Source: Terrabacter sp. Root85 (GTDB lineage Bacteria > Actinomycetota > Actinomycetes > Actinomycetales > Dermatophilaceae). From it: a DNA stretch of 64,000 nt. Below the pieces are notes generated by a model that was given only the letters and a program-made list of their open reading frames with translations, had not been told where the DNA came from and made no database searches. The DNA lies in the NCBI RefSeq assembly GCF_001429185.1, contig NZ_LMIW01000001.1:582439-646438 (forward strand). Reading direction: 5' to 3'. Both the position numbers and the translations under genes were made by a program. Of the stretch, positions 817 through 31,367 are shown one piece after another (the stretch's first letter is position 1; every line of letters starts with the position of its first letter).

Positions 817-1386
817 TCAGACGGGCGCGAGCCGGGCGTGGAGGTGCATGTCGTGCCATCCGTCGGGGTGGAGCAGGGCTGACCGGCGGGTGCCCTCGAG
901 ATCGAAGCCGTTCCTGACCGCCACACGACACGACGGCTCGTTGAGGACCGAGTGCATGAGCTCGACGCGGTGGAGCCCGAGCTCGAAGAGCCAGTCGGTC
1001 ATGGCGGTGAGCGCACGTCCGGCCACGCTGCGACCGCGACCCTCGGGCAGCACCCAGTAGCCGACCTCGGCGACACCTTCGTCCAGGTGCAGGACCGGGA
1101 GACCGACCCTGCCGACGACGACACCTGCTTCGACGACGGCCCACTCGGCCCCGGTCTCAGCCTGCCAGCGGTGCCACGCCCGCCCGCGGACCCACTCGAG
1201 GGCCTCCTCACGCGTCAAGGTGCGACGGTGCCAGCGCTCGATGGCCGGGTCGGCATACGCCCGGACGAGCACCTCGGCGTCGGCCTCGACGAACGGTCGC
1301 AGGCTGAGCCCCGCGCCTGCGTCGATGACCGGCTGGGGCTGACCACTGACCGCGCCGGCAGGGACGGCCACAGGAAGCGACGACAT
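817..1386 (-). CDS. GNAT family N-acetyltransferase (RimJ/RimL-like)
   Basis: ORF 817..1446. The internal Met (MSSLPVA...) gives about 190 aa. GNAT core-like pattern (VGRVGL..., GYWVLPEGRGRSVAGRAL). Start chosen at the ATG at 1386. Confidence 0.6.
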   Translation of the reverse strand: MSSLPVAVPAGAVSGQPQPVIDAGAGLSLRPFVEADAEVLVRAYADPAIERWHRRTLTREEALEWVRGRAWHRWQAETGAEWAVVEAGVVVGRVGLPVLHLDEGVAEVGYWVLPEGRGRSVAGRALTAMTDWLFELGLHRVELMHSVLNEPSCRVAVRNGFDLEGTRRSALLHPDGWHDMHLHARLAPV

Positions 1387-1497
1387 GCGCCCATCCTCGC
1401 AGGCGGCACCGACAGAGGCACCGAGGCGGGAGAAGCATTGGAGCACAAGTCAATTCGATGTGGACAAGCATTGTCGGTCGCACGATCTCCATCTAGA

Positions 1498-3267
1498 ATG
1501 GAACACATGTTCGGACGTGCGACGGATGCAGACGTGTGGAGAGCCGACCCGCTCGGCGACTCCGTCGACACGTCCGCCGCCACGTCCGCCCTGCTGCGAG
1601 AGGTGGCAGGCCTCGACGGTCGTGACCTCGACGACGCCGACCTCATCTCGGCCATCGACGCCCTCGAGCGGGCCAAGGCCGCGTGCGCGGCGGCCCAGGC
1701 ACGGTTGACGACGCGCTTCGTCGAGTCGCAGGCACGCACCGCGACGCGTCTCCGGGCGGAGGCGCAGGCGTGCTCCGACGCCGGCGACTTCGACGGCTGG
1801 GTGGCGGCACGCGACCGGGCGCGCACCCTCGAGCTCGAGCGGGTGCCGTTCGAGACGCCGGGCCGTCGACCTGGTCCGTCGCGGTCCGATCGCCGGACGA
1901 CGCTGTCGCGCACCGGGGTGTCGGCGCAGGTCGGCCTCGCGCGTCGGGAGTCACCGTCCCGGGGCGCTCGACTGGCGAACGCGTCGGTCGCCCTCGTGCA
2001 GCACCTGCACCACACGCTGGAGGCGCTGGGCGCCGGCGTCCTCAACGAGCGTCGCGCCGAGATCGTCGTGCGCTGCACGAGCCACCTCGACCCCGAGCTC
2101 AGGACGAAGGTCGACAGCGAGGTCATCGGGGCGCACCTCGACCTGTCCGACCCCACTGCCCCGTGCGGGGTCGGCTCCTGGGGTGACCGCGAGCTCGAGC
2201 GTCGCCTTCGCGCGTGCGCCGACCGCCTCGACGCGGCGGCCGCGGTCGAGCGGTGCCGCATCGCCGAGGGCGAGCGGCGGGTCACGATCCGACCGGTCCC
2301 CGACGCCATGGCTCTGGTCACTGCCCTGCTCCCCGTGGCCCAGGCCGTCGCGGTGCATGCCGCCCTGACGCGGGCCGCCCTGTCCGGCAAGGCAGCAGGC
2401 GACGAGCGCGGCAAGGGCCAGCTGATGGCCGACGCGCTCGTCGAGCTCGTCACCGGACAGTCCGTGGCCGACGACGTCCCGGTCGAGGTGCAGGTCGTCA
2501 TCACCGACCGGGCGATGCTCGCCGGAGACGAGACCCCCGCCCACGTGCCCGGCTACGGCCCGGTCCCGGCCGGCTGGGTCCGCGAGCTCCTCACCCGGCA
2601 TTCCGAGACGGAGACGGACGACCGTGCGGACCCCGCCACGACCGCGCTTCGCGCCGGAAAGTCGCGCCCCGGACAGTCGCGCCCCGGACAGGCCGACGCC
2701 CCGTCGGGCGTCCCGCCTGACTGCCGCGGCTCCAACGACTCGGAACCACGCCATTCCCCGAACGAGCACACCGCCAAGATCTGGGTGCGTCGACTCTTCA
2801 CCCACCCGTCCAGCGGGACCCTTGTGGCGATGGACAGCGCCCGGAGACTCTTCCCGGCAGCCCTCCGCCGCTTCGTCGTCGCGCGTGACGGCACGTGCCG
2901 CACGCCCTGGTGCGACGCGCCCATCGCGCACGCCGACCACGTCGAGCCGCACGCCGACGGCGGTCCGACGAGCGCGGCCAACGGCCAAGGCCTCTGTGTC
3001 CGCTGCAACCTCGTCAAGGAGGAGCCGGGCTGGTTCTCGGAGGTGCTGCACGACGGACTCGGTCCCACCGACGCTCGCCCGCACACCCTGCGCACCACGA
3101 CGCCGACCGGGCACCGCTACGGCTCGACTGCTCCCCCGCTGCTCCCGATGCCGCCACCTGCCGCTACACGGCCACGAGCGGACCGGCGGGCGCGCGACGG
3201 GCAGGCCGAGGTCATCCGGCTCGAGCTCTACCGGCGCGCCGACCTCGCGGTCGAGCTCACCGGTTGA
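1498..3267 (+). CDS. DUF222 (13E12-repeat) family protein with C-terminal HNH endonuclease motif
   Basis: ATG at 1498 (MEHMFGRATDADVW...). The N-terminal region has the typical DUF222 layout. The C-terminus carries HNH-like Cys/His spacing (DGTCRTPWCDAPIAHADHVEPHADGGPTSAANGQGLCVRCNLVKEE). The listed ORF 952..3267 has a 5' extension antisense to the GNAT gene and is probably not translated. Confidence 0.7.
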   Translation: MEHMFGRATDADVWRADPLGDSVDTSAATSALLREVAGLDGRDLDDADLISAIDALERAKAACAAAQARLTTRFVESQARTATRLRAEAQACSDAGDFDGWVAARDRARTLELERVPFETPGRRPGPSRSDRRTTLSRTGVSAQVGLARRESPSRGARLANASVALVQHLHHTLEALGAGVLNERRAEIVVRCTSHLDPELRTKVDSEVIGAHLDLSDPTAPCGVGSWGDRELERRLRACADRLDAAAAVERCRIAEGERRVTIRPVPDAMALVTALLPVAQAVAVHAALTRAALSGKAAGDERGKGQLMADALVELVTGQSVADDVPVEVQVVITDRAMLAGDETPAHVPGYGPVPAGWVRELLTRHSETETDDRADPATTALRAGKSRPGQSRPGQADAPSGVPPDCRGSNDSEPRHSPNEHTAKIWVRRLFTHPSSGTLVAMDSARRLFPAALRRFVVARDGTCRTPWCDAPIAHADHVEPHADGGPTSAANGQGLCVRCNLVKEEPGWFSEVLHDGLGPTDARPHTLRTTTPTGHRYGSTAPPLLPMPPPAATRPRADRRARDGQAEVIRLELYRRADLAVELTG

Positions 3268-3270
3268 CCG

Positions 3271-3738
3271 TCAGAGCACGAGCTTCATCCTCGGCGCACT
3301 CGTCAGGACAAAGCCGAGCCGTTCGTAGAGCCGTCGCCCGTCGGGAGTCGCGCTGAGATCCACGCGGTCCGCATCGATCGATCGGGCCCACTCGACCACG
3401 TCGCCGACGAGGAGGGTGCCGATCCCGTGCCCGCGATGCTCCGGCACGGTGATGACGTTGGCGAGCCGCACCGTGCGGCCGCGAGCGCAGTGCGGGTTGG
3501 GAACCCCGAGCTCGAGCGTGCCGACCGCCGTCGCGACGATGACGCCGTCCACCTCTACGACCGGGAACCGAGCCGTGGCACCGTCATCGACGACGCGGAC
3601 GAACCAGTCCCGCGCCGATTGCGCCCAGCCCTCACCCAAACCGCCCTCGTCGCCGCCCTCGTCGCCGTCGTACACGAGAGCCCACAGCGAGAGCAGGCGC
3701 GCGAGATCGGACTCGGTGGCCGGACGGAGACGTCCCAC
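3271..3738 (-). CDS. GNAT family N-acetyltransferase
   Basis: C-terminal GNAT motif (RLANVITVPEHRGHGIGTLLVGDVVEWAR...LYERLGF). Start placed at the GTG (VGRLRPATESDLARL) so that it does not overlap purC. The exact start is uncertain. Confidence 0.55.
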   Translation of the reverse strand: MGRLRPATESDLARLLSLWALVYDGDEGGDEGGLGEGWAQSARDWFVRVVDDGATARFPVVEVDGVIVATAVGTLELGVPNPHCARGRTVRLANVITVPEHRGHGIGTLLVGDVVEWARSIDADRVDLSATPDGRRLYERLGFVLTSAPRMKLVL

Positions 3739-3761
3739 CGACGCGCCGGCCCGGTTGCCGG

Positions 3762-4727
3762 TCAGAAGGTCTCTCCTGTCAGGCGCTCGTAGGCCTCGAC
3801 GTACTTCGCCCGCGTCTGGTCGACGACGTGCTGGGGCAGCTCGGGCGGAGGCCCACCCGCCTTGCGGTCCCAGCCCGACTCGGGCGAGGTCAGCCAGTCG
3901 CGGACGAACTGCTTGTCGTAGGACGGCTGCGGGTGTCCGGGCTCCCACCGCTCAGCCGGCCAGAAGCGCGACGAGTCCGGGGTCAGCACCTCGTCGGCGA
4001 GCACGAGCCCGCCCGTGCCGTCGGACGACAGGCCGAACTCGACCTTCGTGTCGGCGATGAGGATGCCGCGCTCGGCGGCGATCTCGTTGCCCCGCGCGAG
4101 GATCGCGCGCGTCAGGCGCGACACCTCGGCCGCGACCTCGGCACCGAGCTCCGCCTCGACCTCGTCGGGCGCCATCGGCAGGTCGTGCTCTCCCACGGGC
4201 GCCTTGGTCGTGGGCGTGAAGACCGGGTCGGGCAGCCGCGAGCCGTCGACGAGCCCGTCGGGCAGCACGACCCCGGAGACGGATCCCTTCTCGCGGTACT
4301 CCTCGAGCCCCCCGCCGGTCAGGTAGGCCCGCGCGATGGCCTCCACCTTGAGCATGTCGAGCCGGCGCACGAGCACCGCACGTCCTGCGACGGCGTCGGG
4401 GACCTCGGTCGAGATGACATGGTTGGGCACGAGGTCGGCGAGCTGGTCGAACCACCACAGCGACAGCCGGGTCAGCACGGCGCCCTTGTCGGGGATCTCC
4501 GGGGACATCATCCAGTCGTAGGCCGAGAGCCGGTTCGAGGCGACGAGCAGCAGCTGGTCCTCGACCACCTGGCCGTCGTCACCGACCGGCGCGTAGAGGT
4601 CACGCACCTTGCCGGAGTAGATGTGCTCGTAGCCAGGGAGGTCGATCGGTAGGTCGGTCACGCGCACAGCCTGCCACCTGCCCAACTGATCGGGCAGGGT
4701 GCGCTCGGGGGGAACGGGCAGGTTCAC
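3762..4727 (-). CDS. purC: phosphoribosylaminoimidazole-succinocarboxamide synthase (SAICAR synthetase)
   Basis: Strong PurC similarity throughout (IYSGKVRDLY, LVASNRLSAYD, ADTKVEFG). GTG start at 4727, preceded by GGAGG at a 7-nt spacing. This start overlaps the stop of the upstream sigma-factor gene in a GTGA arrangement. Confidence 0.85.
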   Translation of the reverse strand: MNLPVPPERTLPDQLGRWQAVRVTDLPIDLPGYEHIYSGKVRDLYAPVGDDGQVVEDQLLLVASNRLSAYDWMMSPEIPDKGAVLTRLSLWWFDQLADLVPNHVISTEVPDAVAGRAVLVRRLDMLKVEAIARAYLTGGGLEEYREKGSVSGVVLPDGLVDGSRLPDPVFTPTTKAPVGEHDLPMAPDEVEAELGAEVAAEVSRLTRAILARGNEIAAERGILIADTKVEFGLSSDGTGGLVLADEVLTPDSSRFWPAERWEPGHPQPSYDKQFVRDWLTSPESGWDRKAGGPPPELPQHVVDQTRAKYVEAYERLTGETF

Positions 4728-5359
4728 GACAGTGCCTCCTTGAGGGCATCGATCTCGATCACGGTGGACAGGCTCTGACGGGCCCGGTGGAGACGGGACT
4801 TCACGGTCCCCTCGGAGACACCGAGCGCGCCGGCCGCCTCGGCGATGGAGCAGTGCGACCAGACGACCAGCTCGATCGCCTCGCGCTGGACCTGCGGAAT
4901 GAGCCTCAGGGCTCGGCGCACCTCGCTCATCTGCAGCTCGTCGTCGACCCGCTCCGCCGTCGATCCGGCGTGGTCGGGCGAGACGGCACCACCGGAGTCG
5001 GCCTCGATGCGCCCGTGCAGCAGTCGCTGCCGCCGCGCCGTACGTGCGACGTTGGCGCACTCCTGCCCCGCCATGACGAGCAGCACGGCCCGCGCCGTCT
5101 CGGACCGCAGCGCGTCCACGGTGCCGGCACGAGCCCGTCGCCAGACGGCGGTGAAGGTCGCCTGCACCACGTCCTCGGCGGCCGCCCAGGACGCCGTGCG
5201 CCGGAACGCGAAGTTGTAGACGGCGTCGCAGTGTCGCCGGTACAGCTCGGTCAGCGCCGCATCGTCGGCTCCCGCCAGCCGCGACCACAGCACGCGGTCG
5301 TCCGCCACCATGGCGGCAGCGGACCTCGGCTCTCCTCGGCTCGTGGTCGTGGTGCTCAT
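4724..5359 (-). CDS. ECF (sigma-70 family) RNA polymerase sigma factor
   Basis: Region-2-like (DAVYNFAFRRT...AEDVVQATF) and region-4 HTH (REAIELVVWSHCSIAEAAGALGVSEGTVKSRLHRAR) are both present. The stop overlaps the purC start. Confidence 0.75.
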   Translation of the reverse strand: MSTTTTSRGEPRSAAAMVADDRVLWSRLAGADDAALTELYRRHCDAVYNFAFRRTASWAAAEDVVQATFTAVWRRARAGTVDALRSETARAVLLVMAGQECANVARTARRQRLLHGRIEADSGGAVSPDHAGSTAERVDDELQMSEVRRALRLIPQVQREAIELVVWSHCSIAEAAGALGVSEGTVKSRLHRARQSLSTVIEIDALKEALS

Positions 5360-26744: not shown

Positions 26745-28013
26745 TCAGGCGCGGCCCTGCGCCCGGCGCTGCACCGGGCGCTCACCCGGCGCCGTCACGT
26801 GGCGGTACGGCGAGCTCCAGAGCAGCAGGGCTGCGACCGCGAGCCCGACCACCCCGATGGCGATGGCGACCCGGTTGCCCCACGTCGCGGCGACGAGGCC
26901 CCCGAGGGGAGCCGCGACGGCGATCGAGCCCCAGTTGAGCGACCGGATCGTCGCGTTCATCCGTCCGCGCAGCCGGTCGGGTGTCACGAGGTTGCGGTAG
27001 CTCATGTCGAGCGGGTCGCGCAGCCCCATCGCCAGGCCGAAGAGCGCGTTCGCGACGAGCGGCCACACGATGGCATACGGCCCGGCCTGCGCGAGCAGCA
27101 GGAGGGCGTATGCCGCCGGGCTCAGCCACTCCGTCGTCGTGATCACCCGGCCGGTGCCGAAGCGCACGCCGAGTCGCGGGGACAGGCCCGCTCCGAGGAC
27201 GCCGGTCACGCCGGTCGCCGCGAGGACGAGCCCGACCGCGAGCGGGTCGAGGTGCAGCTCGGTCGTGGCGAAGTAGACGAGGACCGTCGTGACCATGGCG
27301 TTGGCGAAGAACCAGAGGTGCAGCGAGATGGCGTACGGGCGCAGCACCCTGTGCCGGTAGACCCAGCCGGCGCCCTCGCGCAGCTCGCGCCACACGTGCC
27401 GCTCGGGGGTGCGCTCGGGAGCCCGCTCCTCGACGCGGACCGTCATGAGCACGACGGCCGACACGGCATACGACACGGCGTCGACGAGCACCGCGACGGG
27501 CGCGGACAGCAGCCGCACCAGCGCACCGCCGACGAGCGGACCGAGCGACTGCGTCGCGGCGTAGGTCTGGGCGAGCCGGGCGTTCGCCGAGGCGAGGCGC
27601 GTCTCCGGCACGACCGTCGGCAGGAACGACAGGTGGGCGGCGCTGAAGAACATAGAGGCGGAGCCGGCACAGAAGACGAGGACGGCGACGAGCGGCACCG
27701 TCAGGTGGCCGGTCAGGGCGAGCACCCCGATCGTGCCGACGAGCAGGGCGCACAGCAGGTCGGCCGCGACGAGCAGCGGCCGGCGCCGCACCCGGTCGAC
27801 GACGACGCCGGCGAGCATGCCGAAGAGGAGGTAGGGCAGCCACGTCGCCGCCCGGACGATCCCCAGCTCGGTCTGGTCGGCGTGGAGGGTCTCGATGAGG
27901 AGCAGCTGGAGGGCGAGCGCCGAGACGAAGGTGCCCAGGTTGGAGACGGCGTCGGCGACCCAGAACCGGACGAATGCCGCATTACCGGGCGATTCGACCG
28001 ACGTTCGTGACAC
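26745..28013 (-). CDS. MFS transporter (EntS/YbdA-like)
   Basis: 12 predicted TM helices. GTG start at 28013 (VSRTSVESPGNAAFVRFWVADAVSNLG). The listed ORF has a 5' extension. Confidence 0.75.
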   Translation of the reverse strand: MSRTSVESPGNAAFVRFWVADAVSNLGTFVSALALQLLLIETLHADQTELGIVRAATWLPYLLFGMLAGVVVDRVRRRPLLVAADLLCALLVGTIGVLALTGHLTVPLVAVLVFCAGSASMFFSAAHLSFLPTVVPETRLASANARLAQTYAATQSLGPLVGGALVRLLSAPVAVLVDAVSYAVSAVVLMTVRVEERAPERTPERHVWRELREGAGWVYRHRVLRPYAISLHLWFFANAMVTTVLVYFATTELHLDPLAVGLVLAATGVTGVLGAGLSPRLGVRFGTGRVITTTEWLSPAAYALLLLAQAGPYAIVWPLVANALFGLAMGLRDPLDMSYRNLVTPDRLRGRMNATIRSLNWGSIAVAAPLGGLVAATWGNRVAIAIGVVGLAVAALLLWSSPYRHVTAPGERPVQRRAQGRA

Positions 28014-28176
28014 CCCGAGCCCCCTCCTTACGCGATGCCTACCCTTCCTTGACACCACCTTGTCGAGTCCTGACCTGAACGTCGACCCGAGACTCCGATT
28101 CTGTCCTACCGTGGACGTGACGTTCGGAGGGCTCCGGGCGACCACCAGCGACCGGATGCTCCCCCGGTCGCGCCGA

Positions 28177-28210
28177 GCAGGCCCCGGCAACCGGATGCGT
28201 CGGGGCCTGC
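28177..28210 (-). terminator. hairpin terminator candidate downstream of the citrate synthase gene
   Basis: GCAGGCCCCG-N14-CGGGGCCTGC perfect 10-bp stem, 18 bp after the stop. A second 7-bp hairpin CGACCGG-N8-CCGGTCG lies at 28151-28172. Confidence 0.5.
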
Positions 28211-28227: not shown

Positions 28228-29400
28228 TCAGGCCGGTTGCGGGGCGCGCGTGCCGGTGGGCACCGGCTGGGGCGGCGGCGGCCCGACGTAGCGTGCGGCC
28301 GGCCGGATGATCTTCGGGTCGCGGCTCTGCTCGAGGACGTTGGACGTCCAGCCGACGACGCGCGCGACGCAGAAGGTCGGCGTGAACATCGACGGGTCGA
28401 GCCCCGCGAGCTTCATGACGACGCCGGCGTAGAACTCGACGTTGGCGTGCAGCTCGCGCCCCGGCTTCAGCTCGGCCAGCGCACGCTCGATGGCGTCCTC
28501 GACCCCGACCGCGAGGTCGACGAGCGGGTCGTCCCAGCCGCGGGCGATCTGTTTGAGCATCTCCGAGCGCGGGTCGCGCGTGCGGTAGACGGCGTGGCCG
28601 AAACCCATGATCCGGTCGCCGGACCCGATGCGGTCGCGCACCCAGCCGTCGGCCCGGTCCAGGGTGCCGATCTCGTCGAGGGCCTCGAGCGCCCGGCTCG
28701 GCGCGCCGCCGTGCTTCGGGCCCGAGAACGAGCCGATGGCCCCGACGAGGCAGGCCGCGAGGTCGGCGCCGGTGCTCGCGATGACCCGCGCGGTGAAGGT
28801 CGAGGCGTTGAAGCCGTGGTCCATCGTCGCGACGAGGTACTGCTCGACGGCGCGGGCGTCTCGCGCCGAGGGCAGCCGCCCCGTCACCATCCGCAGGTAG
28901 TCCTCGGCGTGGCCGAGGGTCGGGTCTGCCGGCACCGGCTCGAGCCCGTGGTGGAGACGGTGCGCGGCCGCGAGGATCGTCGGCGTGACGGCGACGGCCG
29001 CCAGGGCGGCCGCGGCCTTCTCGTCCTCGTCGCAGTCGTAGAGCGGACGCAGGCCGGCGATGCCGCCCCACGCCGACAGCGTCGTGCGCAGCACCTGGAG
29101 CGAGTCGGTGGTCGTCGCGCAGATGGCGGGGAGCAGGTCGGCGAGGCCGGGCGGCAGGACGCGTAGTCGCCCCACCTCTGCGGTGAAGGCCGCCAGCTCC
29201 GCGTCGTCGGGCAGGTGGCCGCGCTCGAGCAGGTGCCAGGCCTGCTCGAAACCGACCTGCTCGGCGAGCTCGACGGCGGAGTACTGCCGGTAGTGGAAGA
29301 AGCCCTCGTCGCCGCGGACGTCGCCGAGCTCGGTGTCGGTGACGACGACCTTGGCGAGACCCTTCGGGACCGTGATGAATCCGGTGGGAGTGGTGGACAT
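28228..29400 (-). CDS. citA: citrate synthase (citrate synthase 2 / CitA-like)
   Basis: 390 aa. Citrate-synthase signature (GFGHAVYRTRDPR). Strong RBS (AAAGGAGGA). Confidence 0.85.
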   Translation of the reverse strand: MSTTPTGFITVPKGLAKVVVTDTELGDVRGDEGFFHYRQYSAVELAEQVGFEQAWHLLERGHLPDDAELAAFTAEVGRLRVLPPGLADLLPAICATTTDSLQVLRTTLSAWGGIAGLRPLYDCDEDEKAAAALAAVAVTPTILAAAHRLHHGLEPVPADPTLGHAEDYLRMVTGRLPSARDARAVEQYLVATMDHGFNASTFTARVIASTGADLAACLVGAIGSFSGPKHGGAPSRALEALDEIGTLDRADGWVRDRIGSGDRIMGFGHAVYRTRDPRSEMLKQIARGWDDPLVDLAVGVEDAIERALAELKPGRELHANVEFYAGVVMKLAGLDPSMFTPTFCVARVVGWTSNVLEQSRDPKIIRPAARYVGPPPPQPVPTGTRAPQPA

Positions 29401-29436
29401 GGGGTCCTCCTTTCAGGTTCACTCGTCACTCTCAGC

Positions 29437-29491
29437 GATGTTGATCAACATCGTCAATGTTGATCTCGTCAACGGTTGACCCGATCAACCC
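29437..29491. promoter_or_regulatory. palindromic operator array in the divergent citA / HTH-citrate-synthase intergenic region
   Basis: Perfect 16-bp palindrome GATGTTGATCAACATC (29437-29452). Repeated half-site ATGTTGATC at 29456-29464. Palindrome GTCAAC-G-GTTGAC at 29468-29480. A further GATCAAC at 29484-29490. Confidence 0.7.
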
Positions 29492-29518
29492 CATCGACCA
29501 GACCCGCCCGGAGGCGAC

Positions 29519-30697
29519 GTGACGACCGCACGAGGCACGTGGATCACGACGACGGAGGCCGCCCAGCGACTCGGCGTCAAACGGGCGACCCTCTACGCGT
29601 ACGTCAGCCGCGGGCTGCTGCGGAGCGAGCGCCGGCCGGGCCAGCAGGAGAGCCTCTTCGACCGGGCGCAGATCGACGCCATGGCCTCGGCGACCCGTCC
29701 CCCGGGCGGACCGCAGCCGGTCCTGCGCTTCCGGAGCATCGCCACCGCCGTGAGCCGACAGGCAGAAGGGGAGCTCTTCTACCGCGGCCGCGCGTTGAGC
29801 GACGTCGTCGCCCTGCGGTCGCTCGAGGAGGCAGCGGGGGTCGTGCTGGGGACGACGGTGCCGCAAGGCTTCTCGGGGTTGCCGGAGACGGCCGTCATCG
29901 ACCTGACGAGTCTGCCGCTCGAGCGGCGGATGCCCGTGGCCGTGCAGCTGCTCGCGGCGGCCGACCCCTTCTCCTCGGACACGGACCCCGAGCGGGTCCG
30001 GCACGCGGCGCTGCCCGCGGTCCGGGCCGCGGTCGCCCTGGCGGGGGCCTCGTCGCTCGGTCAGGCGGCCCGCGCCCGGTCCGGCGACCTCACGGCCCTG
30101 ACGCTGACCGCCCTCGGCGGCGACCCGACGGCCGGCGGCGACGTCGCCGTGCTCCGGGTGCTGCTCGTGGCCCTCCTCGACCACGGCCTCACCGCCTCGA
30201 CCGTCGCCGCGCGCGTCGCGGCCTCGACACGCGCCGGGCTCCACGACTGCCTGTCGGCCGCGTACGCCGCGATGGCCGGCCCGCTCCACGGCGCGGCCCC
30301 GGTGGCCGCCCACGCGCTGCTCGCCGAGGGCGTCGACCCCGCCGTGCTCGTGGCGCGGTCGCTGCGCGAGCGGAGCGTGGTGGCCGGCTTCGGACACTTC
30401 CTCTACCCCGAAGGCGACCCGCGCGCCGACGTCGTGCTCGAGGCCCTGTGGCGTCGGCCCGGCACCACCCGGCTGCGGCGGCGCGTCGACGCGCTCGCGG
30501 CGCTCGTCGCCGAGCGCACGGGAGCGCTGCCCAACATCGACCTCGCGAGCGCCGCCGTGCTCCACGCCCTCGGCCTGCCCGCCGAGTCGGGCGAGGTGGT
30601 CTTCCAGGTCGCGAGGTCGGTCGGCGTCGCCGCCCACGTCGTCGAGGAGTATGCCGAGGAGCCCTTGCGCTGGCGCGGTCGCGACCCGCAGGGCTGA
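29519..30697 (+). CDS. helix-turn-helix (MerR/excisionase-type) domain fused to a citrate-synthase-like domain; putative transcriptional regulator
   Basis: GTG start with GGAGG upstream. N-terminus is WITTTEAAQRLGVKRATLYAYVSRGLL (HTH_17-like). The remainder has citrate-synthase fold features (GFGHFLYPEGDPR). Confidence 0.7.
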   Translation: MTTARGTWITTTEAAQRLGVKRATLYAYVSRGLLRSERRPGQQESLFDRAQIDAMASATRPPGGPQPVLRFRSIATAVSRQAEGELFYRGRALSDVVALRSLEEAAGVVLGTTVPQGFSGLPETAVIDLTSLPLERRMPVAVQLLAAADPFSSDTDPERVRHAALPAVRAAVALAGASSLGQAARARSGDLTALTLTALGGDPTAGGDVAVLRVLLVALLDHGLTASTVAARVAASTRAGLHDCLSAAYAAMAGPLHGAAPVAAHALLAEGVDPAVLVARSLRERSVVAGFGHFLYPEGDPRADVVLEALWRRPGTTRLRRRVDALAALVAERTGALPNIDLASAAVLHALGLPAESGEVVFQVARSVGVAAHVVEEYAEEPLRWRGRDPQG

Positions 30698-30698
30698 G

Positions 30699-31367
30699 CT
30701 ACACCCGCTGGTCGAAGACGTGCCGGCGCACCCAGGCGTGCATCGCGATGGCCGCGGCCGCGCCGGCGTTGATCGAGCGGGTCGAGCCGAACTGCTCGAT
30801 GTGGAGCACGGCCGTGCACTCGGCCCGCATCGGCTCGGACAGCCCGGGGCCCTCCTGGCCGAAGACGAGGACGCACCGGCGCGGCAGGTCGAACGTCTCG
30901 ATGGGCACCGAGCCGGGCAGGTTGTCGACACCGACGAGGGCAAGCCCCTCGCCCCGCGCCCACGCGGCGAGCGCGGCGGCGTCCGGGTGGTGGTGCTCGT
31001 GCTGGTAGCGGTCGGTGACCATGGCCCCGCGTCGGTTCCACCGCCGCTTGCCGACGATGTGGAACGCGCGGGCGCCCATGGCGTTCGCCGTGCGGATGAC
31101 CGACCCGATGTTGAAGTCGTGGCCCCAGTTCTCGACGGCGACGTGGAAGTCGTGGCGTCGGGCGTCGAGGTCGGCGACGATCGCGTCGTGGCGCCAGTAC
31201 CGGTAGGCGTCGACGACGTTGCGCCGGTCGCCGTGCTCGAGCAGCTCGGGGTCCCAGTGGTCGCCGGACGGGCGCGGGCCCTGCCACGGGCCGACCCCGA
31301 CCGCGACGGTCGGGCCGTTCGGTGCGTCCGGCCCGTTCGGGGTCTCACCCCCTTCAGGCGATGCCAC
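30699..31367 (-). CDS. TrmH/SpoU family RNA 2'-O-methyltransferase
   Basis: SpoU motifs (NIGSVIRTANAMGA, LVFGQEGPGLS, IEQFGSTRSINAGAAAAIAMH). Start uncertain. Confidence 0.75.
   Translation of the reverse strand: MASPEGGETPNGPDAPNGPTVAVGVGPWQGPRPSGDHWDPELLEHGDRRNVVDAYRYWRHDAIVADLDARRHDFHVAVENWGHDFNIGSVIRTANAMGARAFHIVGKRRWNRRGAMVTDRYQHEHHHPDAAALAAWARGEGLALVGVDNLPGSVPIETFDLPRRCVLVFGQEGPGLSEPMRAECTAVLHIEQFGSTRSINAGAAAAIAMHAWVRRHVFDQRV

What the first reader, a model, noticed from the sequence alone, without database searches (positions are those of the whole stretch)
29401..30697. HTH-citrate-synthase fusion protein divergent from citA, with a dense palindromic operator array between them
The 118-bp divergent intergenic region contains a perfect 16-bp palindrome GATGTTGATCAACATC. 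It also holds at least two further ATGTTGATC / GATCAAC half-sites and a GTCAAC-G-GTTGAC palindrome. The adjacent gene encodes an excisionase/MerR-type HTH fused to a full citrate-synthase-like domain that retains GFGH. This looks like an enzyme-derived transcription factor that may sense oxaloacetate, acetyl-CoA or citrate and auto-regulate the citA pair.
Basis: partly seen in the sequence, partly recalled or inferred. Interest (0 to 1): 0.7.

Follow-up and report, generated by a model that had tools for sequence, protein, structure and literature searches.

The report
Citrate-synthase-fold regulator with conserved operator
A gene annotated as "citrate synthase" most likely encodes a DNA-binding regulator built on a citrate synthase fold; the same operator sequence lies beside it and a partner citrate synthase gene in several bacterial phyla, and no paper in the searched library describes it as a regulator.

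Summary
The 118-bp gap between a CitA-type citrate synthase gene (28228-29400, minus strand) and a 392-aa gene (29519-30697, plus strand) holds an 18-bp perfect palindrome and about seven TTGAY/RTCAA half-sites. The 392-aa protein is a MerR/excisionase-type winged HTH, a disordered linker, and a complete citrate synthase (CS) fold.

Palindrome length alone is not significant in this 73% G+C DNA. The comparative evidence is strong:
- At least 597 genomes encode this fusion. In 74 of 80 fetched loci, a CitA-type CS with Glu in place of the catalytic Asp lies divergently upstream.
- The core TCAAYNTTGA lies just upstream of the fusion gene in 66 of 80 loci, about 400-fold enriched over the rest of those loci.
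- Searching metagenomes with the motif alone recovered the fusion gene next to it in 57 of 74 high-G+C contigs.
- The motif stays with the fusion gene when the CS is absent, and with the CS when the two genes are convergent.

Best reading: a one-component regulator that binds this operator and controls citA and itself. Its CS-like domain keeps the oxaloacetate/citrate pocket, but the Arg324 CoA contact is variable. DNA binding, the ligand and the sign of regulation are inferred, not shown. No literature on it was found.

The parts
28228..29400 (-). CitA-type citrate synthase gene (390 aa), the probable regulated target
   Evidence: Full-length Pfam Citrate_synt, 342 bits. The best solved relative is B. 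subtilis CitA 2c6x at 266 bits; M. tuberculosis/M. bovis CitA scores 193 bits. It has HGGA, GFGHAVYR and NVEFY (Glu where other CS have the catalytic Asp). The same NVE signature is in 72 of 72 readable partner genes in other genomes.
29405..29411 (-). Ribosome-binding site AGGAGGA of citA, 4 nt before its ATG
   Evidence: Read from the sequence. Largely conserved among four Intrasporangiaceae-type relatives.
29401..29518 (.). 118-bp divergent intergenic region carrying the operator array (57% G+C against 73% for the window)
   Evidence: Aligned with relatives whose proteins are 68-79% identical, it keeps a 24-base invariant run, TTGATCAACATCGTCAATGTTGAT. The spacers between half-sites vary.
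29436..29453 (.). 18-bp perfect palindrome CGATGTTGATCAACATCG (core TTGATCAA)
   Evidence: The core is invariant in L001-L004. A TTGATCAA-type site recurs in Acidimicrobiia loci.
29453..29475 (+). Core operator unit conserved across phyla: GTCAATGTTGATCTCGTCAACGG (RTCAA-N2-TTGAY-N3-RTCAA)
   Evidence: Weight-matrix score 24.8 bits, the top hit in the window; the only other hit (12.3 bits, 29442, minus strand) overlaps it. Consensus of 67 sites: gTCAAtaTTGATt.aaTCAAyat. TCAAYNTTGA occurs at 3.36 per kb upstream of fusion genes and 0.008 per kb elsewhere. Preferred half-site spacings are 7 and 8 nt.
29459..29489 (.). 15+1+15 imperfect palindrome GTTGATCTCGTCAAC g GTTGACCCGATCAAC, containing four half-sites
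   Evidence: GTTGAC at 29475-29480 is invariant in close relatives, while the last half-site (29484-29489) varies at one position in each of L002 and L003.
29510..29514 (+). Ribosome-binding site GGAGG, 4 nt before the GTG start of the fusion gene
   Evidence: The start is supported by a 392-aa homologue at 99% identity.
29519..30697 (+). HTH-citrate-synthase fusion gene (392 aa), the probable regulator
   Evidence: AF2 model: pLDDT 88.9, pTM 0.82.
29540..29689 (+). MerR/excisionase-type winged helix-turn-helix (aa 8-57)
   Evidence: Pfam HTH_17 32.9 bits, MerR_1 29.3 bits. The model topology is strand-helix-helix-strand-strand-helix. The nearest solved sequence is SoxR, E=0.02. L18, Y26, Y28, R31 and G32 are invariant or nearly so in 141 family representatives.
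29690..29743 (+). Arg/Pro-rich flexible linker (aa 58-75)
   Evidence: pLDDT is below 50 at aa 65-72. Length and sequence vary across the family.
29744..30658 (+). Citrate-synthase-like domain (aa 76-380), the presumed ligand-sensing and dimerisation module
   Evidence: Pfam Citrate_synt 162.9 bits. Foldseek TM 0.6-0.75 to CS/PrpC/CitA structures. H222, H257, H293, R302, D341, R366 and R386 align with pig-CS H238, H274, H320, R329, D375, R401 and R421.

Best explanation
The 392-aa protein is a one-component transcription regulator, and the TTGAY/RTCAA array at 29436-29489 is its operator.

Proposed mechanism:
- The CS-like domain, like all citrate synthases, should form a dimer. That would present two N-terminal winged HTH domains on flexible linkers.
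- These domains bind the inverted half-sites. The conserved unit is RTCAA-N2-TTGAY-N3-RTCAA, and the extra copies here suggest several dimers or a higher oligomer.
- The array fills the space between the two divergent start codons. Occupancy should therefore control both citA and the regulator's own gene.
- The CS-like domain keeps the oxaloacetate/citrate-binding residues. Binding of oxaloacetate or citrate, with the open-to-closed domain movement known for CS, is the most likely signal that changes DNA affinity.

Shown here: the domain architecture, the fold, residue conservation, and cross-phylum linkage of the operator with the gene pair.

Inferred, not shown: that this protein is what binds the operator, dimerisation, the ligand, and whether it represses or activates.
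For: 1. Architecture: HTH plus linker plus full CS fold.
2. Family size: 308 clusters (50% identity) at E<=1e-30, with nearly all of the top 150 matching from the HTH onward. At least 597 genomic loci were found.
3. Synteny: a CitA-type CS lies on the opposite strand upstream in 74 of 80 loci from at least four phyla.
4. Operator: TCAAYNTTGA lies in the 270 bp upstream of the fusion gene in 66 of 80 loci, at 3.36 per kb against 0.008 per kb elsewhere. Most of the remaining loci carry variants. The 67-site consensus is gTCAAtaTTGATt.aaTCAAyat, with fixed 7- and 8-nt half-site spacing.
5. Footprint: among close relatives the half-sites are invariant and the spacers vary.
6. Reverse test: the motif alone, searched in metagenomes, finds the fusion gene within about 520 bp in 57 of 74 high-G+C contigs, and the fusion or a CitA-type CS in 60 of 74.
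7. The operator follows the fusion gene where no CS is present (L023, L067, L068, L075). It follows the CS alone where the genes are convergent (L119, L169).
8. The HTH is the only DNA-binding domain common to all these loci, and it is extremely conserved (Y26, Y28, G32 at 100%). That matches an operator conserved across phyla.
9. Ligand pocket in 141 representatives: H222 95%, H257 99%, R302 99%, D341 97%, R366 100%, R386 96%.
Against: - There is no experimental binding data.
- The promoter scan found no sigma-70-like promoter in the region, so the operator-promoter geometry is unknown here.
- The near-complete retention of the catalytic triad is more than a pure sensor usually needs. The protein may be an active enzyme as well.
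- In S. coelicolor another regulator, MtrA, binds the equivalent intergenic region, at a different sequence (PMC12323332).
- One locus (L006) has the fusion gene but no motif and no CS.
- Fourteen high-G+C metagenome matches have neither gene nearby.
Confidence: 0.72

Rival explanations
1. Bifunctional trigger enzyme. The protein is a catalytically active citrate or 2-methylcitrate synthase that also binds the operator. Catalytic turnover or substrate flux, rather than simple ligand occupancy, would then set its regulatory state.
For: The catalytic triad equivalents are retained in the window protein (H257, H293, D341). They are 99%, 89% and 97% conserved in 141 divergent family members, as are all the oxaloacetate-binding Arg/His residues. 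The full CS fold is predicted with high confidence.
Against: - The protein scores far below every NCBIfam CS or PrpC cut-off (112.6 against 332 bits).
- The equivalent of the CoA-phosphate contact Arg324 is Pro here and variable in the family (P 32%, R 26%), while 70 of the 72 readable partner CS show Arg there and 2 show Lys.
- Pig Asn242 is Ala in 86% of members.
- About 11% of members have lost the GFGH histidine (Q, S, E, T or D), which an obligate enzyme should not tolerate.
Confidence: 0.25
2. MerR-style activator rather than a simple repressor. The 18-bp palindrome lies inside the spacer of the citA promoter, and the ligand-bound protein would realign the -35 and -10 elements.
For: The HTH matches MerR_1/MerR, and its nearest solved sequence is SoxR. 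Read on the minus strand, TTGACG (29457-29452) and GAGAGT (29433-29428) are 18 nt apart, with the palindrome between them (my reading).
Against: - The promoter assignment is my own guess; the consensus scan found nothing.
- The MerR coiled-coil dimerisation helix is absent.
- In Streptomyces loci the operator lies upstream of a conserved TACGGT-N6-ATG, an apparently leaderless promoter, at roughly -37 to -15. That fits repression by occlusion as well as activation (inference).
Confidence: 0.2
3. The array is the operator of some other transcription factor (MtrA, GlnR or similar). The fusion protein would be just a minor citrate synthase with a vestigial or unrelated HTH.
For: MtrA binds the SCO5831/SCO5832 intergenic region in EMSA, and both genes are up-regulated late in a delta-mtrA strain (PMC12323332).
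Against: - The MtrA site (TTGACTTAACTGTCCA) is a different block from the GTCAATATTGAT core.
- The core motif is conserved next to the fusion gene in Proteobacteria, Deinococcus and Thermoanaerobaculia. The only DNA-binding domain seen at every one of these loci is the fusion's own HTH.
- The HTH is among the most conserved parts of the protein, so it is not vestigial.
Confidence: 0.05
4. The CS-like domain mainly serves to form mixed oligomers with the neighbouring CitA enzyme. The abundance or conformation of CitA, rather than a small molecule, would then control DNA binding.
For: There is very tight pairing with one specific CS clade, the NVE variant, in 72 of 72 readable partners. CS enzymes are obligate dimers with shared active sites (established knowledge).
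Against: - The fusion and its operator occur without any CS neighbour. The neighbour is an HMGL-like gene in Deinococcus, and 2-hydroxyacid dehydrogenase plus TctC in Cupriavidus.
- The fusion's CS domain is only about 30% identical to the partner over the C-terminal half.
- Multimer modelling was not possible with these tools.
Confidence: 0.05

Closest known systems
MocR/GabR/PdxR-type regulators (GntR HTH fused to a fold-type-I aminotransferase domain), and trigger enzymes such as PutA, BirA and NadR (from my own knowledge)
   Same: One polypeptide joins an N-terminal DNA-binding domain to a complete enzyme fold that dimerises and binds a metabolite. The operator lies next to the regulator's own gene and a divergent metabolic gene.
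   Different: The enzyme fold here is citrate synthase and the HTH is MerR/excisionase type. I found no characterised regulator with this combination, and no solved structure.
B. subtilis citR-citA divergent pair (LysR-type CitR represses the minor citrate synthase CitA; from my own knowledge, Jin and Sonenshein 1994)
   Same: The target enzyme is the same clade: the window's citA is closest to B. subtilis CitA (2c6x, 266 bits) and shares the NVEFY signature. The regulator is encoded divergently from it.
   Different: The regulator here is not LysR-type. It is itself a citrate synthase paralogue carrying an HTH.
S. coelicolor SCO5831 (citA3) / SCO5832 (citA4)
   Same: Probable orthologous pair, judged by synteny. 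Streptomyces loci show CS(-), fusion(+), Suc_Fer-like, sCache/SPOB_a histidine kinase, response regulator. This matches the published order SCO5832 to SCO5828 (PMC9739823). The divergent intergenic region carries the same core motif.
   Different: The literature treats both genes as 'putative citrate synthases', and only MtrA binding has been studied (PMC12323332). Streptomyces has one core unit plus a second conserved block, and some loci have an extra site upstream of the two-component system. The window has a denser array and no such system nearby.
MerR family (SoxR, MerR) and small MerR-like or excisionase HTH proteins (BldC, Xis)
   Same: Winged-HTH sequence and topology; the motif LYAYVSRGLL resembles SoxR LHFYESKGLI.
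   Different: There is no coiled-coil dimerisation helix and no MerR effector domain; dimerisation would come from the CS fold. There is no mobile-element context. Similarity to BldC was not detected by sequence.
Caulobacter CitA, a citrate synthase that controls the cell cycle independently of catalysis (PMC7083601)
   Same: A citrate synthase fold used for regulation.
   Different: From my own knowledge (I did not open the paper), Caulobacter CitA has no DNA-binding domain and no known operator. Its mechanism is indirect.

Membership tests
Citrate synthase (enzyme, PF00285) | Complete CS fold or Pfam domain | tested here: met
   Citrate_synt 162.9 bits, profile positions 10-350 of 357. AF2 model with Foldseek TM 0.6-0.75 to CS, PrpC and CitA structures.
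Citrate synthase (enzyme, PF00285) | Catalytic triad His274/His320/Asp375 (pig numbering, from my own knowledge) | tested here: met
   H257, H293 and D341 align to them. In 141 family members they are 99%, 89% and 97% conserved, so His320 is dispensable in about 11%.
Citrate synthase (enzyme, PF00285) | Oxaloacetate/citrate-binding His238, Arg329, Arg401, Arg421' | tested here: met
   H222 95%, R302 99%, R366 100%, R386 96%.
Citrate synthase (enzyme, PF00285) | Acetyl-CoA phosphate contact Arg324 (four residues after His320) | tested here: not met
   Pro297 in the window protein; the family shows P 32%, R 26% and others. 70 of the 72 readable partner CitA-type enzymes show Arg at this position (GFGHxxYR) and 2 show Lys.
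Citrate synthase (enzyme, PF00285) | Reaches a curated NCBIfam CS or 2-methylcitrate synthase cut-off | tested here: not met
   Best is NF009005 at 112.6 bits against a cut-off of 332. All equivalog models are far below threshold.
Citrate synthase (enzyme, PF00285) | Catalyses acetyl-CoA + oxaloacetate -> citrate + CoA | not testable with these tools
   Needs an enzyme assay.
MerR-family transcription activators | N-terminal MerR-type winged HTH | tested here: met
   MerR_1 29.3 bits (cut-off 21.6). MerR scores 27.2, just under its 28.2 cut-off. SoxR is the nearest solved sequence, E=0.02.
MerR-family transcription activators | Long antiparallel coiled-coil dimerisation helix after the HTH, plus a C-terminal effector site | tested here: not met
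   After helix 49-58 the model has a disordered linker (aa 59-76) and then the CS domain.
MerR-family transcription activators | Palindromic operator inside an over-long (19-20 bp) -35/-10 spacer | tested here: inconclusive
   A possible TTGACG-18 nt-GAGAGT on the minus strand encloses the palindrome (my reading), but the consensus scan found no promoter. No transcription start data.
Excisionase / recombination directionality factors (HTH_17, TIGR01764) | HTH_17 or excise domain | tested here: met
   HTH_17 32.9 bits against a cut-off of 27. TIGR01764 scores 28.5 against 28.8, marginally below.
Excisionase / recombination directionality factors (HTH_17, TIGR01764) | Small stand-alone protein encoded with an integrase in a mobile element | tested here: not met
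   The protein is 392 aa and fused to a CS domain. The neighbour is a citrate synthase in 74 of 80 loci across phyla.
Enzyme-fold one-component regulators (works-like class, not a homologous family) | DNA-binding domain plus enzyme-fold domain, with a conserved operator at its own or its target's promoter | tested here: met
Enzyme-fold one-component regulators (works-like class, not a homologous family) | Ligand-dependent sequence-specific DNA binding | not testable with these tools
   Needs EMSA or footprinting with candidate ligands.

The most novel reading that the evidence does not exclude
HTH-CS proteins form a large, cross-phylum family of transcription factors not described as such in the papers searched. 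They would use the citrate synthase fold, and probably its oxaloacetate- or citrate-driven open-to-closed movement, as the sensor controlling a dedicated CitA-type (Glu-variant) citrate synthase and, in some lineages, other organic-acid genes. Hundreds of database entries named 'citrate synthase', including S. coelicolor citA3/SCO5831, would then be regulators and not TCA-cycle enzymes.
Probability: 0.55. Interest if true: 0.75.

Novelty: new variant of a known kind. Interest (0 to 1): 0.68.

Why it matters
- **Annotation.** At least 597 loci in a one-genome-per-species collection, and 308 clusters (50% identity), are labelled "citrate synthase" or "citrate/2-methylcitrate synthase". Counting them as enzymes inflates TCA-cycle redundancy in metabolic models of Streptomyces and other actinomycetes.
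- **Biology.** The family would add citrate synthase to the short list of enzyme folds recruited as sensor domains of transcription factors. It would also link a central-metabolism node (oxaloacetate/citrate) directly to transcription of a second, poorly understood citrate synthase clade: CitA of B. subtilis and M. tuberculosis type, with Glu in place of the catalytic Asp.
- **Testability.** The operator is short, well defined and conserved from Actinomycetota to Proteobacteria. The hypothesis can be tested at once in a tractable host (S. coelicolor SCO5831/5832). The pair could also serve as a metabolite-responsive genetic switch.

Tried and rejected
- **Palindrome length as evidence: rejected.** Perfect palindromes of 16 bp or more are expected by chance in this 73% G+C window (7 seen, 5.3 expected).
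- **Consensus promoter and terminator scan of 29300-29620:** nothing found. The promoter positions I give are my own tentative readings.
- **More operator copies in the window (a regulon):** none. Exact, 1-mismatch and weight-matrix scans hit only 29436-29489.
- **Flanking genes as part of the module:** the MFS_3 transporter downstream of citA is conserved only in one Terrabacter locus, and the SpoU methylase only in L001-L004. Neither is part of the conserved module.
- **Literature:** nine full-text searches found no paper treating an HTH-CS protein as a regulator and none reporting the motif. The library does not cover all journals.
- **HTH alone against PDB sequences:** only a weak SoxR match (E=0.02). 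No BldC or Xis hit.
- **Apparent intervening gene between the CS and the fusion in L015, L027, L033, L048 and L072:** in L033, the one locus checked, it is an N-terminal extension of the CS itself whose sequence looks like a CBS pair; this was read by eye and not run against Pfam.
- **Exceptions left unexplained:** L006 has the fusion but neither motif nor CS. Fourteen high-G+C metagenome contigs carry the motif without either gene.
- **Low-G+C metagenome matches:** all 46 lack both genes. They are on A+T-rich contigs (25-51% G+C), where I take a match to this A+T-rich pattern to be chance.
Full report
**What is in the sequence**

The window is high-G+C actinobacterial DNA (73% G+C). The closest proteins are from Terrabacter and related Intrasporangiaceae.

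Two genes diverge from a 118-bp spacer (29401-29518):
- On the minus strand, a 390-aa citrate synthase (28228-29400).
- On the plus strand, a 392-aa protein (29519-30697, GTG start, GGAGG four bases upstream).

The spacer holds:
- an 18-bp perfect palindrome, CGATGTTGATCAACATCG (29436-29453);
- a second ATGTTGATC at 29457;
- a 15+1+15 imperfect palindrome, GTTGATCTCGTCAAC-g-GTTGACCCGATCAAC (29459-29489).

Read as half-sites, there are about seven TTGAY/RTCAA pentamers in 54 bp.

**Is it more than chance?**

Palindrome length is not evidence. The window has 7 perfect palindromes of 16 bp or more, and first-order Markov simulations give 5.3.

What is unusual is the cluster. Five of the 21 GTTGAYC heptamers in 64 kb lie in 50 bp here, with 7.9 expected in the entire window. 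The spacer is also locally A+T-rich (57% G+C). The real test is comparative and is described below.

**The two proteins**

The plus-strand protein has three parts:
- a MerR/excisionase-type winged HTH at aa 8-57 (HTH_17 32.9 bits, MerR_1 29.3 bits);
- a low-confidence Arg/Pro-rich linker;
- a full Citrate_synt domain at aa 76-380 (162.9 bits).

An AlphaFold2 model built on 35 diverse homologues is confident (pLDDT 88.9, pTM 0.82). It shows strand-helix-helix-strand-strand-helix, then disorder at aa 59-76, then the all-helical CS fold. Foldseek returns only ordinary CS, PrpC and CitA structures (TM 0.6-0.75). No HTH-CS fusion appeared among the top 50 structure matches, which were all plain CS, PrpC or CitA chains. 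The HTH's nearest solved sequence is SoxR, weakly (E=0.02).

The protein falls far below every curated NCBIfam citrate or 2-methylcitrate synthase threshold (112.6 against 332 bits).

The minus-strand gene is a full-length CS. It is closest to B. subtilis CitA (2c6x, 266 bits) and also similar to M. tuberculosis CitA. It carries NVEFY, meaning Glu where most CS have the catalytic Asp.

**The family**

An exhaustive profile search finds 308 clusters (50% identity) at E<=1e-30. Nearly all of the top 150 align from residue 9 or so, so they include the HTH.

The 80 I fetched include Streptomyces, Kribbella, Actinoplanes, Amycolatopsis, Gordonia, many Acidimicrobiia, Alphaproteobacteria (Tepidicaulis, Stappia, Mesorhizobium), Cupriavidus, Uliginosibacterium, Deinococcus and a Thermoanaerobaculia MAG.

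Conservation across 141 representatives:
- The HTH is almost invariant: L18, Y26, Y28, R31, G32.
- The equivalents of pig-CS residues are highly conserved: H238 95%, H274 99%, R329 99%, D375 97%, R401 100%, R421' 96%.
- The GFGH histidine (H320) is replaced in 11% of members.
- Asn242 is Ala in 86%.
- The CoA-phosphate contact Arg324 is Pro in the window protein and variable in the family.

The pig numbering and residue roles come from my own knowledge of the CS literature. The alignments are.

**Synteny**

In 74 of 80 loci, a CS lies on the opposite strand upstream of the fusion gene. All 72 readable partners have NVE, HGGA and GFGHxxYR/K (Arg in 70, Lys in 2), which is one specific CS clade. 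In one Acidimicrobiia locus checked (L033), and probably the four others with the same spacing, the partner CS carries an N-terminal extension that looks like a CBS pair; I did not run it against Pfam.

The Streptomyces gene order matches the published SCO5832 to SCO5828 order: CS, fusion, Suc_Fer-like, sCache/SPOB_a kinase, response regulator (PMC9739823). So SCO5831 ('citA3') is the probable orthologue.

**The operator**

The intergenic regions of these loci, although from different phyla, share one motif:
- Streptomyces: GTCAATATTGATTGAATCAATAT
- Kribbella and Actinoplanes: GTCAATGTTGATCCAGTCAACATG
- Alphaproteobacteria: ATCAATCTTGATT-N5-7-AATCAATGT
- Thermoanaerobaculia: GTCAACATTGATTGTAGAATCAAC
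- This window: GTCAATGTTGATCTCGTCAAC (29453-29473)

Quantitatively:
- The core TCAAYNTTGA lies in the 270 bp upstream of the fusion gene in 66 of 80 loci. That is 3.36 sites per kb, against 0.008 per kb in the rest of those loci.
- Most of the other loci carry variants such as ACATTGATCAATAT.
- The 67-site consensus is gTCAAtaTTGATt.aaTCAAyat.
- Half-site spacing is fixed: RTCAA to TTGAY at 7 nt (58 cases), TTGAY to RTCAA at 8 nt (56 cases). Same-orientation spacings of 19-21 and 40 nt also recur, suggesting binding along one face of the helix.

Among close relatives (68-79% protein identity), the run TTGATCAACATCGTCAATGTTGAT is invariant, while the spacers between half-sites vary. This is a classical footprint.

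A matrix built only from other genomes hits the window at 29453 (24.8 bits) and at the overlapping 29442 (12.3 bits), and nowhere else.

**Reverse test**

I searched the metagenome collection for GTCAATRTTGATNNNRTCAAYAT without reference to any gene. Of 120 returned stretches, 74 are on contigs with at least 55% G+C:
- 57 of these have an HTH-CS gene starting within about 520 bp.
- 60 have that gene or a CitA-type CS.

All 46 low-G+C matches have neither gene. They are on A+T-rich contigs, where I take them to be chance matches.

The motif is not a generic scattered repeat.

**Which gene does the motif follow?**

- Where the CS is absent, the motif stays upstream of the fusion gene. The divergent neighbour is then an HMGL-like Claisen-condensing enzyme (Deinococcus), a 2-hydroxyacid dehydrogenase plus a TctC tricarboxylate receptor (Cupriavidus), or DUF2252 plus a methyltransferase (Uliginosibacterium).
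- Where the CS and the fusion are convergent (L119, L169), the motif lies about 85 bp upstream of the CS and not upstream of the fusion.
- Two Streptomyces loci have an extra site just upstream of the CitA/DcuS-type sensor kinase.

So both genes are plausible direct targets, and there may be a small organic-acid regulon.

**Most likely mechanism**

The protein is a one-component regulator. The CS fold, an obligate dimer in all known CS, would present two winged HTHs on flexible linkers to the inverted half-sites. The multi-unit array in this window suggests several dimers or a higher oligomer covering the whole space between the two start codons. That would control citA and autoregulate.

The conserved oxaloacetate/citrate pocket, set against the degenerate Arg324 position, points to oxaloacetate or citrate rather than acetyl-CoA as the signal. 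The well-known open-to-closed CS domain movement is the obvious transducer.

All of this paragraph is inference. Nothing here shows binding, ligand or sign. I put 0.72 on 'specific DNA-binding regulator of this operator', and about 0.4-0.5 on oxaloacetate or citrate as the ligand.

**Rivals**

- A true bifunctional trigger enzyme (0.25). This overlaps the main model and is favoured by the retained catalytic triad.
- MerR-like activation from within a promoter spacer (0.2). It rests on my tentative reading of TTGACG-18 nt-GAGAGT on the minus strand; the consensus scan found no promoter.
- Another factor owns the operator (0.05). MtrA does bind the S. coelicolor intergenic region, but at a different sequence, TTGACTTAACTGTCCA (PMC12323332).
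- Control through hetero-oligomers with CitA (0.05). This is weakened by loci that lack a CS.

**Comparison with what is known, and novelty**

It works like MocR/GabR, PutA or BirA, in which an enzyme fold serves as the sensor of a transcription factor. Its genomic logic parallels B. subtilis citR-citA, but the regulator is unrelated to LysR.

It is not a canonical MerR protein (no coiled coil). It is not an excisionase (no mobile context). By curated thresholds it is not a bona fide CS.

Nine literature searches found no description of this architecture as a regulator, or of the motif. The orthologous SCO5831 is called a putative citrate synthase. I class it as a new variant of a known kind, with interest 0.68.

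Noticed in passing
window 26745-28190 (-): An MFS_1/MFS_3 transporter gene starts 37 bp downstream of citA on the same strand and may be co-transcribed. It is conserved only in the Terrabacter locus L001, so it is not part of the conserved module.
   Followed up: partly
window 30699-31367 (-): A SpoU-family RNA methylase gene converges on the fusion gene, with only one base (30698) between their ends (30697 and 30699). The arrangement is conserved in L001-L004 only.
   Followed up: partly
L076:6236 and L077:6294: A second operator-like site, GTCAAYRTTGATCAACA, lies just upstream of a sCache_3_2/SPOB_a (CitA/DcuS-type) histidine kinase and response regulator, after a Suc_Fer-like gene. This is the SCO5830 to SCO5828 region, a possible extra regulon member in Streptomyces.
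   Followed up: partly
L067 (Deinococcus) 2491-3840; L068 (Cupriavidus) 996-3868: Where no CitA-type CS is present, the fusion gene with its motif is divergent from an HMGL-like (homocitrate/citramalate/Re-citrate-synthase family) gene in Deinococcus. In Cupriavidus it is divergent from a 2-hydroxyacid dehydrogenase plus a TctC tricarboxylate receptor.
   Followed up: partly
L033:2406-3968 (also L015, L027, L048, L072): In these Acidimicrobiia-type loci about 380-470 bp separate the CS homology from the fusion gene. In L033, the one checked, this is an N-terminal extension of the CS ORF whose sequence looks like a CBS pair (read by eye, not run against Pfam).
   Followed up: partly
L007:3138-3986: In an Actinoplanes locus the operator plus RBS-like sequence (GTCAATRTTGATCCNRTCAACATGRGAGGATCC) is duplicated at both ends of an 847-bp spacer between the CS and the fusion gene.
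   Followed up: no
Streptomyces loci, e.g. L051:3949-3995: In most Streptomyces loci fetched, the motif is followed by a conserved GATACGGTG-N5-6-CATG. This looks like a -10 box (TACGGT) with a leaderless ATG start for the fusion gene, which would put the operator at about -37 to -15 (my reading).
   Followed up: no
L085, L090, L107, L162, L190 (high-G+C metagenome contigs): These carry multi-half-site arrays very like the operator but with no HTH-CS or CS nearby. In L107 the array lies between a JmjC/cupin gene and a DEAD/DSHCT helicase, and in L090 it is beside the same helicase type. They could be trans targets or an unrelated element.
   Followed up: partly
L089, L092, L100: A near-perfect palindrome, AATGTTGATGaCATCAACATT, is shared by L089, L092 and L100; in L092 (the one checked) it lies between an XRE-cupin regulator gene and a metallo-beta-lactamase-fold gene. 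It is probably the site of a different regulator that uses similar half-sites.
   Followed up: partly
L006 (Amycolatopsis bartoniae) 3600-5137: This fusion-family gene (41% identical) has no operator motif and no CS within 4 kb. It is an orphan paralogue that does not fit the pattern.
   Followed up: partly
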